From sequence record OK335775.1: a DNA stretch of 64,000 nucleotides, one strand, 5' to 3'. Below are positions 28,252-29,885 of this stretch, piece by piece. This DNA comes from Escherichia phage PSD2002. Below the pieces are notes generated by a model. That model had not been told where the DNA came from, ran no database searches, and saw only the letters and a list, made by a program, of their open reading frames with translations. Each line of letters begins with the position of its first letter. Positions within the stretch are counted from its first letter, which is position 1. The translations under genes and the position numbers were made by a program.

Positions 28252-28575
28252 ATGGAACTTCCTATTAAAGCGGTCGGAGAATATGTTATTCTCGTTTCCG
28301 AACCAAAACAAGCCGGTGATGAAGAAACTACTGCATCTGGTATCGTTATTGGCAAACTTCATCAAGGTGAAATCCCTGAACTTTGTGAAATTTATTCTGT
28401 AGGACCTGATGTCCCTGAAGATTTTTGTGAAGTAGGCGATTTGACTCCACTTCCTGTTGGTAAGATTGCTAACGTGCCTCATCCGTTGGTTGCATTGGGT
28501 ATTAAACAACCTAAAGAAATTAAACAAAAATTCGTTACCTGTCACTATAAAGCTATTCCTTGCCTTTATAAGTGA
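28252..28575 (+). CDS. 31: Co-chaperonin gp31 (GroES analogue for capsid folding)
   Basis: 107 aa; [17 protein letters not shown]...VGPDVPE.FCEVGDL...[23 protein letters not shown] matches T4 gp31. Confidence 0.85.
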
Positions 28576-28721
28576 TATAAATAATAATATGGATTGGCTG
28601 CCGGACTAGTTAGTTAACCGGAGAATCCTAAGCGGTGGACTACAACTGAGAGACTTGCCGAAAGGAAGTGAAATTCAGAAGAACGTGTCCACCAATCTTT
28701 ATCTCGAATTGAGAAACTAAA

Positions 28722-28970
28722 ATGAACAAACAATTGAATCACGCTCTTGAACTGCAACGCAACGCTTGGAACAACGGTCACGAAAACTACGGCGCATCTA
28801 TTGATGTTGAGGCCGAAGCACTGGAAATCCTGCGTTATTTCAAACATCTGAATCCTGCTCAGGCTACTCTGGCTGCTGAACTGGAAGCTAAAGATGAACT
28901 GAAATTTGCTAAGCCTTTGGCTTCAGCAGCTCGTAAAGCAGTACGTCATTTTATTATTACCCTGAAGTAA
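28722..28970 (+). CDS. rIII: rIII-like lysis inhibition accessory protein
   Basis: 82 aa, same size and position (after gene 31) as T4 rIII. Confidence 0.5.
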   Translation: MNKQLNHALELQRNAWNNGHENYGASIDVEAEALEILRYFKHLNPAQATLAAELEAKDELKFAKPLASAARKAVRHFIITLK

Positions 28971-29048
28971 GTTAAATCGAGGAGCCGTCGAACTGTTTGA
29001 TTAATGATTTGCGAATCATTATAGTTTTAAGACCCCAACAGTTTTACG

Positions 29049-29077
29049 GTGTACCTCTTGAATGTATTTTGTACTAT
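29049..29077 (+). promoter_or_regulatory. T4-type early promoter upstream of a long leader
   Basis: gtgtac + 17 nt + tactat; an additional promoter-like ttga...tatagt with internal palindrome lies at 28995-29025. Confidence 0.4.
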
Positions 29078-29232
29078 CACGCGTCAGAAAAAGGTTATCT
29101 GTCTAAGTCGTGGTTGGTATGATGACGAGGTTTATGGTTATCCTGTCGTTAAATATCCTAAACCTATGTTCCCCTTGAGGGCTTGCGCAGGCAACGCCAA
29201 TAAGTCCTGCATCCTAATTTAAGAGATTTAAA

Positions 29233-29394
29233 ATGGCTAAGAAAGAAGTTAAAGTAGTTGACGGTACCTCTAAACGCGCTGGTTACAAGCGTGCGTCCAA
29301 CAAGCGTATCAATCAGGTAGTTGATAAGCTTCAAGCTCGTGCTCGTGCAGTATTGCGTGCAGATGCTGCTTGCTTTGGTAAGCCTCAGGCATAA
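29233..29394 (+). CDS. Small basic protein (53 aa), not in ORF track
   Basis: Manually translated MAKKEVKVVDGTSKRAGYKRASNKRINQVVDKLQARARAVLRADAACFGKPQA; followed directly by a strong terminator. Confidence 0.4.
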   Translation: MAKKEVKVVDGTSKRAGYKRASNKRINQVVDKLQARARAVLRADAACFGKPQA

Positions 29395-29399
29395 GTTAT

Positions 29400-29427
29400 G
29401 GGACTCCGAAGAGTCCCATTTTTGTTT
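29400..29427 (+). terminator. Rho-independent terminator
   Basis: gggactc-cgaa-gagtccc stem-loop followed by atttttgttt. Confidence 0.75.
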
Positions 29428-29446
29428 CTAAATCTTTAAAAAAATG

Positions 29447-29475
29447 GTGTACATCTCCGGTAGGCATGATACTAT
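29447..29475 (+). promoter_or_regulatory. T4-type early promoter in inverted repeat (PeSL-like), shared leader with 29889 copy
   Basis: gtgtac + 17 nt + tactat; tgtacat...atgtaca inverted repeat; downstream leader tatagac.tgtaccaaataatacgaaaacaaact repeated at 29914. Confidence 0.55.
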
Positions 29476-29516
29476 AGACATGTACCAAATAATACGAAAA
29501 CAAACTGGAGAATAAA

Positions 29517-29885
29517 ATGAAAATCAATCTTAACTCATATATCAAATGTAAAGACCACGACGGTTACAAAGCAATCGAAACTAAAGAAATGCAATGGCAC
29601 TTGTACAAAGAACAATTTGAATTTGTAGGTTGCATGACTCCGGAAGGTCCTTCTGATGACTTCTCTTGGAAAATTATGGTAACAAACTTTTTTACCGGTG
29701 ATACCTACGAACTGAAAACTATCATAACCGGTAAGATTCGTTGTAAGACCTATGAAGATGAAGAAACCGGTTATTCTGAAGATGTTACATGGTATCAAAA
29801 TGGTCGCACTACTGCTGATGAGTTGATTGAAAAAATGAAAGCCAAAGGTGAATTAAATTTAGATAATTGGATTAAAGTTGCATAA
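29517..29885 (+). CDS. Hypothetical early protein
   Basis: 122 aa ORF after early promoter. Confidence 0.5.
   Translation: MKINLNSYIKCKDHDGYKAIETKEMQWHLYKEQFEFVGCMTPEGPSDDFSWKIMVTNFFTGDTYELKTIITGKIRCKTYEDEETGYSEDVTWYQNGRTTADELIEKMKAKGELNLDNWIKVA

What the first reader, a model, noticed from the sequence alone, without database searches (positions are those of the whole stretch)
28980..29232. About 250-bp noncoding stretch with promoter-like elements upstream of a 53-aa basic-protein gene and a strong terminator
No ORF above 20 codons is present on the plus strand here, yet there are two early-promoter-like sequences (around 28995-29025 with an internal aatgatt/aatcatt palindrome, and 29049-29077). 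The transcript would carry a 150-200 nt leader before a tiny basic ORF that ends at a strong terminator (29400..29427). This could be a regulatory leader or a small RNA.
Basis: seen in the sequence. Interest (0 to 1): 0.4.

Follow-up and report, generated by a model that had tools for sequence, protein, structure and literature searches.

The report
Structured RNA leader of gene 30.9
The 260-base gap between the rIII and 30.9 genes of this T4-like phage is non-coding and consists of RNA hairpins and a pseudoknot that are better conserved than the genes on either side. It is an undescribed structured leader RNA, also present in phage T4, whose function is unknown.

Summary
The window comes from a T4-like phage (Dhakavirus, 99.5% identical to Shigella phage PSD9). 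The flagged interval is the spacer between rIII and the homologue of T4 gene 30.9, a 53-aa protein with pI 10.8. The stretch is real and non-coding.

It is 95-98% identical to T4, while the flanking genes are 58-84% identical. On the + strand it is a chain of RNA modules:
- X: a small hairpin.
- A: an H-type pseudoknot.
- C: a hairpin followed by CUUG.
- D: a hairpin just before the 30.9 ribosome-binding site.

Compensatory base changes support R, A, C and D. No Rfam family matches. Module A occurs once in the window and lies upstream of every canonical 30.9 gene examined.

The terminator is confirmed.

Best reading: a cis-acting structured leader of the 30.9 mRNA, probably a binding platform for a regulator. 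That function is inferred, not shown. Moderately interesting; a new member of a known kind.

The parts
28722..28970 (+). rIII gene (82 aa), upstream neighbour. Its read-through transcripts carry the structured spacer.
   Evidence: ORF; annotated as the lysis inhibition accessory protein in PSD9 and T4.
28979..29057 (+). Module R, a long irregular RNA hairpin. Helix 1 is GAGG 28979-82 / CCUC 29054-57 and is invariant. Helix 2 is 28984-28997 / 29037-29050. A conserved 15-nt bulge lies at 29022-29036.
   Evidence: RNAalifold on 11 T4-type sequences (A4). Pair counts: 98.9% paired, 5 pairs with changes on both sides, 0 of 500 shuffles reach this, slid controls 25-63% paired. 98% identical to T4.
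28997..29025 (+). Probably coincidental, because it lies inside hairpin R.
   Evidence: 9 of 12 positions match; such sites are not enriched over shuffles. The -35 is CTGATT in most relatives, and the window's T pairs with a compensating A in helix 2.
29049..29077 (+). Early-promoter-like site P2, GTGTAC-17-TACTAT. The expected start is near 29084.
   Evidence: Same hexamers and spacing as the promoter-like site at 29447-29475. The strict pattern occurs 4 times on the + strand against 0.01 expected. The -10 is absent in T4 and the spacer is shortened in L180.
29076..29114 (+). Module X. Outer helix AUCACG/CGUGGU, inner hairpin CAGA-AAAAGGUUA-UCUG, and a 3' internal loop UCUAAGU. It has the same architecture as module D. 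It belongs to the ~51-nt segment (29067-29117) that T4 lacks.
   Evidence: Alignments. The inner stem covaries (CAGA/UCUG versus CAGC/GCUG in L171 and L174; read). The outer helix is not well supported.
29118..29170 (+). Module A, an H-type pseudoknot. The 5' flank is UAUGAUG. S1 is GACGAGG 29124-29130 / CCUGUC 29142-29147, with a bulged G. S2 is GGUU 29136-29139 / AACC 29161-29164: 4 bp here, up to 7 bp in relatives. The A-rich linker GUUAAAUAUCCUA is at 29148-29160.
   Evidence: 22 distinct variants: S1 88% and S2 81% paired, 25 and 23 cells with changes on both sides, 0 of 2000 shuffles reach either. The covariance model scores 70 bits here and at most 16.4 bits elsewhere in the window. It was found upstream of every canonical 30.9 gene examined.
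29171..29185 (+). Module C, a short hairpin CCC(C)-loop-GGG followed by the conserved CUUG.
   Evidence: The stem covaries between phages: CCC/GGG, CCUC/GAGG, GCCU/AGGC, UCC/GGA, GCU/AGC. The pattern occurs once in the window.
29187..29210 (+). Module D, hairpin GCAGG / CCUGC, with an inner GGC-AAC-GCC mini-hairpin and a 3' internal loop AAUAAGU. It is the last structured element before the ribosome-binding site.
   Evidence: A helix occupies this position in every leader where D follows C, with seven different sequences (GCAGG/CCUGC, GCGGG/CCUGC, GGGAGC/GCUCCC, GGUGGAG/CUCCAC, GGGAAC/GUUCCC, GAACUGG/CCAGUUC, GACCAG/CUGGUU). The UAAG(U/A)C loop motif recurs in distant leaders.
29221..29235 (+). 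Translation initiation region of 30.9: AAGAG Shine-Dalgarno-like purines at 29221-29225 and ATG at 29233.
   Evidence: Sequence. Local accessibility is the same as for other genes of the window.
29233..29394 (+). Gene 30.9 homologue: 53 aa, pI 10.8, function unknown.
   Evidence: 66% identical to T4 gp30.9. PHROG 1427, unknown function. No Pfam, NCBIfam, PADLOC or PDB relative. The family is confined to T4-like phages.
29398..29429 (+). Intrinsic terminator-like hairpin (29398-29419) plus T run. It ends the rIII/30.9 transcripts and is followed by another early-promoter-like site at 29447-29475.
   Evidence: Terminator scan; promoter census.

Best explanation
The interval is the transcribed, non-coding spacer between rIII and gene 30.9 of a T4-like phage. 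Its + strand RNA is under strong selection as a chain of folded modules: hairpin R, hairpin X, pseudoknot A, hairpin C plus CUUG, and hairpin D. The chain ends about 10 nt before the 30.9 Shine-Dalgarno sequence.

Two transcript classes are expected:
- Read-through from rIII, which carries all modules.
- In this phage, transcripts from the internal early promoter P2 (start near 29084), which carry X, A, C and D.
Both end at the terminator at 29398-29419.

The most likely role is a cis-acting 5' leader of the 30.9 mRNA. The pseudoknot and the loop motifs, which are conserved to the nucleotide, would be docking sites for a trans-acting factor that sets translation or stability of the 30.9 message. 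Candidates are the small basic gp30.9 itself (autogenous control, as T4 gp32 exerts through its leader pseudoknot), another phage or host RNA-binding protein, or a small ligand.

Shown: non-coding status, conservation, RNA structure, strand, single copy, and strict linkage to 30.9. Inferred: that the RNA regulates, what it binds, and the direction of the effect.
For: 1. Non-coding. One-base indels separate T4 from the window in the 3' half. The ATG of the only shared mini-frame is ACG in L181. The 57-aa ORF has no PHROG hit.
2. Conservation exceeds that of the neighbouring genes. Against T4: R 98%, A-C-D 95%, rIII 84%, 30.9 73%, the next gene (Pfam Phage_30_8) 58%. The spacer was found in 775 phage records, one place in each.
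3. Structure.
- R: 98.9% paired, 5 pairs with compensatory changes, 0 of 500 shuffles reach this.
- A: both stems covary, 0 of 2000 shuffles reach the observed values.
- C and D: stems differ in sequence but not in position across leader types.
4. Strand. The consensus fold is -46.4 kcal/mol on the + strand and -34.9 on the - strand. Invariant G-U pairs become C-A mismatches on the - strand.
5. Linkage. Model R1 finds A exactly once in the window, and in all 24 loci tested that hold a canonical 30.9, including remote homologues (E about 1e-5). It finds none in five rIII loci that lack 30.9, nor next to two divergent 30.9-like genes.
6. Arrangement. The order at the 3' end, D then ribosome-binding site then ATG, is kept although the upstream modules are shuffled.
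7. Transcription. T4 30.9 RNA is classed as early. rIII has early, middle and late promoters. No terminator lies between rIII and 30.9.
8. Precedents in T4: the gene 32 leader pseudoknot and structured initiation regions of e, soc, 49 and I-TevI (PMC3014915).
Against: - There is no experimental evidence of regulation.
- Thermodynamic folding of the whole spacer is not better than shuffles (z = -0.8).
- The Shine-Dalgarno region of 30.9 is no less accessible than that of 49 other genes (0.54 versus 0.52). A simple sequestration mechanism is therefore not supported.
- The proposed long-range anti-SD pairing (CCUCUUGAAU with AUUUAAGAG) has no covariation.
- In the window and in T4, pseudoknot stem S2 is only 4 bp, and an alternative pairing (AGGUUUA/UAAACCU) competes with S1.
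- Modules are not strictly gene-specific. A hairpin that precedes 30.9 in Klebsiella-type phages sits upstream of rIII here (28634-28693). Module order varies, and the distance from A to the ATG ranges from about 60 to 270 nt. This fits independent RNA units as well as it fits one leader.
- Two divergent 30.9-like genes do without any of these modules.
Confidence: 0.5

Rival explanations
1. The modules are independent stable non-coding RNAs or decoys. They would be cut out of the rIII-30.9 transcript and act in trans, for example by titrating a host RNA-binding protein, a ribonuclease or an anti-phage system. On this reading their position in front of 30.9 is incidental.
For: - Loops and linkers, not only stems, are conserved to the nucleotide.
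- Module order is shuffled between phages, and modules are gained and lost (B is present in L216 and absent in L217; X is absent in T4).
- One module type occurs upstream of rIII here and upstream of 30.9 elsewhere.
- The 137-nt module B in relatives is a complex, strongly covarying RNA.
- Local folding does not hide the 30.9 ribosome-binding site.
Against: - No promoter-plus-terminator unit of its own: hairpin D has no U tail, and the only terminator follows 30.9.
- No complementary target was found in the 64-kb window for the conserved single-stranded motifs.
- No similar sequence exists in 5,426 E. coli genomes.
- Module A is strictly linked to 30.9.
Confidence: 0.22
2. The conservation reflects DNA-level signals: early or middle promoters and operator-like palindromes that control transcription of 30.9. 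RNA structure would play no part.
For: - P2 is a significant match to the phage's early-promoter pattern.
- A sigma-70-like match overlaps the palindrome.
- Stem-loop-plus-early-promoter cassettes (PeSLs) are known in T4-type phages (PMC2839356).
Against: - Compensatory changes keep base pairing, with G-U intermediates that work in RNA but not in duplex DNA recognition.
- There is a clear strand asymmetry.
- Conservation extends about 150 nt downstream of P2.
- The -10 of P2 is deleted in T4, yet the flanks stay 95-98% identical.
- The elements are single-copy, unlike PeSLs.
- The first promoter match is not above chance.
Confidence: 0.1
3. The high identity is a by-product of frequent recombination or gene conversion between co-infecting T-even phages. 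On this reading the segment is a mobile or hitch-hiking piece with no function of its own.
For: - The middle segment is polymorphic: a deletion, X, or the 137-nt B.
- T4-type phages are mosaic, and intergenic cassettes are proposed recombination sites.
Against: - In more distant phages the modules have diverged while keeping their pairing. That is purifying selection on structure, not recent transfer.
- The same pattern is seen in hundreds of genomes from several genera.
Confidence: 0.05
4. A small protein is encoded in the spacer, for example the 57-codon GTG frame or the shared tail MFPLRACAGNANKSCI(L/F)I.
For: - Mechanical ORFs exist.
- The 51-nt difference from T4 is a multiple of three.
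- Some phage annotations extend gp30.9 upstream across the leader (P0034 and P0035, 97-102 aa).
Against: - Plus and minus 1 indels between close relatives shift the frame.
- The start codon is lost in L181.
- The frame is absent from the leader types in which the stems covary.
- No PHROG match.
- No Shine-Dalgarno sequence precedes the internal ATGs.
Confidence: 0.03

Closest known systems
T4 gene 32 mRNA leader (pseudoknot operator for autogenous translational repression by gp32)
   Same: A T4-family early/middle mRNA with a long 5' leader. The leader carries an H-type pseudoknot tens of nucleotides upstream of the start codon and is conserved among T-even phages. The product is a nucleic-acid-binding-type protein (PMC3014915).
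   Different: No sequence similarity. The 30.9 leader has at least four further modules. There is no AU-rich unstructured tract between the pseudoknot and the ribosome-binding site. Binding by gp30.9 is untested, and gp30.9 has no known function.
Inhibitory RNA structures at the initiation regions of T4 genes e, soc, 49 and I-TevI
   Same: The choice of promoter decides which 5' RNA segments are present. Here P2 lies inside the structured region, so P2 transcripts lack module R.
   Different: Those cases rest on a simple hairpin that hides the Shine-Dalgarno sequence. Here the ribosome-binding site is not predicted to be unusually occluded, and the conserved elements lie well upstream.
Lambda pL-nutL-N leader (boxA/boxB RNA in the leader of a small basic arginine-rich protein, followed by a terminator)
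   Same: Architecture only: early promoter, roughly 150-220-nt structured leader with short conserved hairpins, a small very basic protein, then a terminator. CCUCUUGA (29054-29061) loosely resembles boxA. This comparison is from my own knowledge and is not a test.
   Different: No sequence or family relation was shown. No Rfam hit. T4 is not known to use N-type antitermination. Another promoter follows the terminator, so read-through is not required.
PeSL cassettes (promoter-early stem-loops) of T4-type phages
   Same: Intergenic position, and an early promoter combined with a stem-loop. The element at 29398-29475 just downstream is of this type (PMC2839356).
   Different: PeSLs are short, repeated many times per genome, G/C-tract hairpins that act as terminators. 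The 30.9 leader modules are single-copy, conserved across genera, include a pseudoknot, and are not followed by U tracts.
Bacterial ribosomal-protein leaders and riboswitches (cis-regulatory structured 5' UTRs)
   Same: A conserved multi-helix 5' UTR with invariant loops, lying in front of the gene for a small basic protein.
   Different: No match to any of the 4227 Rfam families, even at E = 10 on a 961-base stretch. No ligand or protein partner is known.

Membership tests
Protein-coding gene | A reading frame kept among relatives, with a start codon and homologues | tested here: not met
   Frame-shifting indels between T4 and the window. ATG changed to ACG in L181. No PHROG hit for the 57-aa ORF. 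The frames are absent in other leader types.
T4-type early promoter (sigma-70 dependent) | GTTTAC-like -35, about 17-bp spacer, TAnnAT -10, usually an upstream A-tract; function conserved among relatives | tested here: inconclusive
   P2 (29049-29077) has GTGTAC-17-TACTAT, identical to the site at 29447. The strict pattern occurs 4 times against 0.01 expected. It lacks the A-tract and the TGA/AGAC context. Its -10 is absent in T4 and its spacer is 11 nt in L180. P1 (28997-29025) is not above chance. Transcription starts cannot be tested here.
Intrinsic terminator | G+C-rich hairpin directly followed by a U run | tested here: met
   29398-29419: 9 bp with 5 G-C pairs, then TTTTTGTTT. No such element lies between rIII and 30.9.
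H-type RNA pseudoknot | Two stems in which the loop of stem 1 pairs with sequence 3' of it; both stems supported by covariation; loop lengths able to span the stems | tested here: met
   Across 22 variants S1 is 88% and S2 81% paired, with AT/TA/GC and CG/GC/TA exchanges; 0 of 2000 shuffles reach the observed values. L1 is 2-3 nt and L3 is 13-14 nt. Caveat: in the window and in T4, S2 is only GGUU/AACC.
Any Rfam 15 family (riboswitches, ribozymes, sRNAs, r-protein leaders, tRNA/tmRNA) | Covariance-model score at or near the gathering threshold | tested here: not met
   No hit at gathering thresholds in the window. Only an 11.7-bit chance match at E = 4 on 28560-29520. Nothing relevant in six related loci. 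No tRNA or tmRNA.
RegB endoribonuclease site | Single-stranded GGAG followed by an A-rich tract, consensus GGAGRAYARAA (PMC1702504) | tested here: not met
   The only GGAG (28981-28984) reads GGAGCCGUCGA. C at positions 5-6 is extremely rare in true sites, and this GGAG is predicted to lie in helix 1/2 of R.
Trans-acting small RNA gene | Own promoter and own terminator, or a defined processed 3' end; a seed complementary to targets | tested here: not met
   No terminator before 29398. No complementary sites in the window for the conserved loops. Processing cannot be tested here.
Autogenous translational operator (gene 32 type) | The gene product binds its own leader structure and represses translation | not testable with these tools
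   Only indirect support: strict co-occurrence of module A with canonical gp30.9 and the basic nature of the protein.
PeSL cassette | Early promoter plus G/C-tract stem-loop, repeated at many intergenic sites of one genome | tested here: not met
   The modules are single-copy per genome (one place per record; one model hit in 64 kb). The hairpins are not G/C-tract terminators.

The most novel reading that the evidence does not exclude
The rIII-30.9 spacer of T-even-type phages may hold a family of undescribed, mobile, ultraconserved RNA modules: pseudoknot A, the UAAG(U/A)C-loop hairpins X and D, hairpin C, and in relatives the 137-nt multi-helix RNA B. Together with the tiny basic protein gp30.9, these could form a ribonucleoprotein or a ligand-sensing switch. 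Its real job would be to act on the host (translation, RNA decay or defence), not merely to tune one small gene. That would be the first riboswitch-like or RNP-type regulatory RNA of phage T4. As of 2010, no riboswitch or trans-acting RNA had been functionally characterised in T4 (PMC3014915).
Probability: 0.3. Interest if true: 0.75.

Novelty: new member of a known kind. Interest (0 to 1): 0.55.

Why it matters
T4 is among the best-studied of all viruses. Yet this spacer, also present in T4 itself (NC_000866 130541-130784), carries RNA structure conserved more strictly than the surrounding genes. It has no Rfam family and no description in the open literature I could search.

It offers a compact, testable case of RNA-based control in T-even phages. 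It also gives a handle on the function of the orphan early gene 30.9. Finally, it shows structured RNA modules being shuffled between the leaders of neighbouring genes. If the pseudoknot binds gp30.9 or a host factor, that would add a second example to the gene 32 paradigm. If the modules act in trans, they would be the first functional small RNAs of T4.

Tried and rejected
1. Known RNA families. Rfam at gathering and permissive thresholds, plus tRNA/tmRNA scans, found nothing.
2. Hidden gene. Rejected on indels, a lost start codon and the absence of homologues.
3. RegB processing site at GGAG. Rejected against the published 11-nt consensus.
4. Shine-Dalgarno sequestration. I noticed CCUCUUGAAU (29054-63) is complementary to AUUUAAGAG at the ribosome-binding site, and that other leader types carry local CUCC...GGAAG hairpins. 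But accessibility is the same as for 49 other genes and does not depend on the transcript's 5' end. The long-range pair shows no covariation. Not supported.
5. Two helices predicted by RNAalifold. GAAUGU/GCAUYY is unsupported: it never varies on both sides and has an A-C mismatch in the window. AGGGCUUG/UAAGUCCU is rejected: it breaks in L178 and L182, where the C and D hairpins hold.
6. Overall thermodynamic stability. Not significant (z = -0.8 on the + strand, -1.7 on the - strand).
7. Minus-strand RNA. The consensus fold is weaker and pairs break.
8. Extra copies or trans targets in the window. None.
9. Host mimicry. No match in E. coli genomes.
10. Function of gp30.9. Pfam, NCBIfam, PADLOC, PDB sequence search and a 5.8-billion-protein search gave only hypothetical phage proteins.
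11. Wider sampling. A metagenome scan for module A added almost no new diversity. A looser viral scan mostly hit a capsid-gene motif of small unrelated contigs.
12. Literature. Eight searches found no description of this spacer. The Miller et al. 2003 T4 genome review was not available.

Full report
**What the locus is**

The window is from a T4-like phage. The 1.1 kb around the finding is 99.5% identical to Shigella phage PSD9 (Dhakavirus) and matches 788 phage records. The flagged interval is the spacer between rIII (28722-28970) and a 53-aa ORF (29233-29394). That ORF is the homologue of T4 gene 30.9, at 66% identity. The T4 counterpart of the spacer is NC_000866 130541-130784, and no feature is annotated there. 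gp30.9 is very basic (14 K+R against 4 D+E, pI 10.8). Its function is unknown: PHROG 1427 only, and no Pfam, NCBIfam, PADLOC or PDB relative. A search of 5.8 billion proteins returned only hypothetical proteins of T4-like phages.

**Checking the observation**

- The terminator is confirmed: a 9-bp stem at 29398-29419 followed by a T run.
- The stretch holds no ATG-initiated ORF of 20 codons or more. It does hold mechanical ORFs of 41 codons (TTG start) and 57 codons (GTG start).
- The first promoter-like site (TTGATT-17-TATAGT, 28997-29025) matches 9 of 12 positions. Such matches are as frequent in shuffled sequence: 12 found, 9.7 expected.
- The second site (GTGTAC-17-TACTAT, 29049-29077) was below the scan's threshold. 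It has the same hexamers and spacing as the site at 29447, which follows the terminator. A census shows 12 + strand sites of the form GT(G/T)TAC-N16-18-TAnnAT. The strict form occurs 4 times against 0.01 expected. P2 is therefore a credible early promoter in this phage.
- P2 is not general. T4 lacks its -10, together with 51 nt (29067-29117). L180 has an 11-nt spacer.

**The unexpected feature: conservation**

Aligned with T4, the spacer is almost identical outside the 51-nt indel, whereas the coding flanks diverge. In 60-column windows, 28977-29066 scores 58-59 of 60 and 29127-29214 scores 55-56 of 60. rIII scores about 42-57 and 30.9 about 36-45. By segment against T4:

| Segment | Identity to T4 |
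|---|---|
| R | 98% |
| A-C-D | 95% |
| rIII | 84% |
| gene 31 | 83% |
| 30.9 | 73% |
| next gene | 58% |

The spacer is found in 775 phage records, once in each.

**It is not coding**

- T4 and the window differ by single-base indels at three places in the 3' half.
- The only mini-frame they share (MFPLRACAGNANKSCI...) loses its ATG in L181.
- That frame does not exist in the other leader types.
- The 57-aa ORF has no family.

**Anatomy**

I compared 30-odd distinct spacers taken from viral contigs, metagenomes and assemblies. They resolve into modules. In the window these are:

- **R (28979-29057).** Five pairs are changed on both sides, no shuffle out of 500 reaches this, and slid controls give 25-63% paired. 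Helix 1 (GAGG/CCUC) never varies, so it is only a prediction.
- **X (29076-29114).**
- **A (29118-29170), an H-type pseudoknot.** Stem S1 carries a bulged G, and its loop pairs with sequence downstream of an A-rich linker to form S2. In 22 distinct variants S1 is 88% and S2 81% paired. Exchanges include A-U/U-A/G-C and C-G/G-C/U-A. In S2, GGUU/AACC becomes AGUU/AACU, and the three variable loop bases covary with their partners. None of 2000 shuffles reaches the observed pairing or double-change counts. These shuffles ignore phylogeny, so they are supportive, not probabilities.
- **C (29171-29185).** A short hairpin followed by the conserved CUUG. Five different stem sequences occur.
- **D (29187-29210).** A helix that always sits just before the ribosome-binding site when it follows C. 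Seven different helix sequences occur.

X and D share a design: an outer helix, an inner hairpin, and a 3' internal loop UAAG(U/A)C. That loop motif recurs in distant leaders.

In the window and in T4, S2 is reduced to 4 bp. An alternative pairing, AGGUUUA/UAAACCU, would compete with S1. The pseudoknot is therefore well supported for the family and less so for this particular phage.

**Strand**

The consensus fold of the T4-type alignment is -46.4 kcal/mol on the + strand, with a covariation term of -1.6. On the - strand it is -34.9 kcal/mol with -0.6, and several pairs turn into C-A mismatches. The functional molecule is therefore + strand RNA, the sense of rIII and 30.9.

**Linkage**

- A covariance model of A (R1) scores 70 bits at 29118-29170. 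Nothing else in the 64 kb scores above 16.4 bits.
- It finds A in all 24 tested loci that hold a canonical 30.9. These include remote homologues of the protein (E about 1e-5) fetched afterwards as a test.
- It finds none in five loci where rIII is followed by other genes.
- It finds none beside two divergent 30.9-like genes that abut rIII or a promoter directly.

**Transcription**

In T4, rIII has early, middle and late promoters (PMC9409239). 30.9 RNA is classed as early, and the protein was not classed (PMC9697503 supplement). No terminator separates rIII from 30.9. R shows RNA-type covariation but lies upstream of P2 and overlaps P1, so it must be expressed on rIII read-through transcripts. 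P2 transcripts would start near 29084 and carry X (minus the 5' strand of its outer helix), A, C and D.

**Mechanism**

What is shown is a selected, folded, sense-strand RNA tied to 30.9. The most economical reading is a cis-acting leader that recruits a factor to control translation or stability of the 30.9 mRNA. Known T4 precedents are the gene 32 pseudoknot operator and the structured initiation regions of e, soc, 49 and I-TevI (PMC3014915).

I could not support a specific mechanism:
- The ribosome-binding site is no less accessible than those of 49 other genes (0.54 versus 0.52).
- Accessibility does not depend on the 5' end.
- The anti-SD-like CCUCUUGAAU shows no covariation with the SD region.
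- The GGAG in R does not fit the RegB consensus GGAGRAYARAA (PMC1702504).

The main rival is that the modules are autonomous RNAs acting in trans. Several observations favour it:
- Module order is shuffled.
- Modules come and go.
- Loops are conserved to the nucleotide.
- The hairpin at 28634-28693, upstream of rIII in this window and in T4, is homologous to the hairpin that precedes 30.9 in Klebsiella-type phages. Its closing stem covaries.

Against it: the spacer has no terminator of its own, no target in the window and no host counterpart.

DNA-level explanations, neutral homogenisation and a hidden ORF are each contradicted by the covariation, the strand asymmetry and the indels.

**Comparison with what is known**

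No Rfam 15 family matches. PeSL cassettes (PMC2839356) are repeated promoter-terminator units, whereas these modules are single-copy. A 2010 review states that no riboswitch or trans-acting small RNA had been characterised in T4. Eight literature searches found no description of this spacer.

**Verdict**

The feature is a real, previously unannotated, structured leader RNA family of T-even-type phages: a new member of a known kind. Its function is still to be established.

Noticed in passing
Not in the window; same locus in relatives, e.g. L152:945-1081 (JS98, NC_010105 131218-131354), L164, L166, L176, L216: Module B is a ~137-nt multi-helix RNA between rIII and 30.9. It is present in 404 phage records (Escherichia, Klebsiella, Enterobacter, Yersinia, Erwinia and others), once in each, mostly 90-100% identical across genera. 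RNAalifold on 12 variants gives 40 pairs, 18 with compensatory changes. There is no Rfam hit. Presence varies between near-identical leaders (L216 has it, L217 does not), and its order relative to module A varies.
   Followed up: partly
window 28634-28693 (gene 31 to rIII spacer, 28576-28721): The hairpin GGUGGAC-UACAAC...GAAGAACGUG-GUCCACC is homologous to the hairpin that sits just before the 30.9 start in Klebsiella-type phages. The closing stem covaries in four forms. The whole 31-rIII spacer folds better than shuffles (z = -2.76) and ends in a small hairpin next to the rIII start. Structured modules therefore move between the leaders of neighbouring genes.
   Followed up: partly
window 10374, 14289, 14995, 15284, 22208, 23499, 29447, 29890, 40528, 53035, 57058 (+ strand): Census of this phage's early-promoter-like sites: GTTTAC(A)-N16-18-(TGA)TACTAT-AGACCTATCAAC. 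All the convincing ones are on the + strand.
   Followed up: partly
window 29398-29475: A terminator hairpin is followed, after an A-tract, by an early-promoter-like site (GTGTAC-17-TACTAT) ahead of the next gene (Pfam Phage_30_8). This is a PeSL-type cassette.
   Followed up: no
window 28497-28586: The 3' end of gene 31 and the sequence just after it, including the late-promoter-like TATAAATA at 28576-28583, are 93-97% identical to T4. The rest of gene 31 is about 75-80% identical.
   Followed up: no
related loci, e.g. L018:1788-2084; proteins P0034, P0035: In some phages the leader is open in frame with 30.9 and is annotated as a 97-102-aa protein ('Uncharacterized 11.1 kDa protein in Gp30-rIII intergenic region'). 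These are probably over-extended ORF calls across the structured leader.
   Followed up: no
T4 and L157-L160, L175-L182 leaders, directly after the rIII stop; absent from the window: A further hairpin module (F: GGAGAUUCACUGCCUUAGUGUGAGCU in T4, GGUGAUUCGCUACCUUAAGUGCGGCUAG in others) recurs at different positions in other leader types. The window goes straight from the rIII stop into module R.
   Followed up: no
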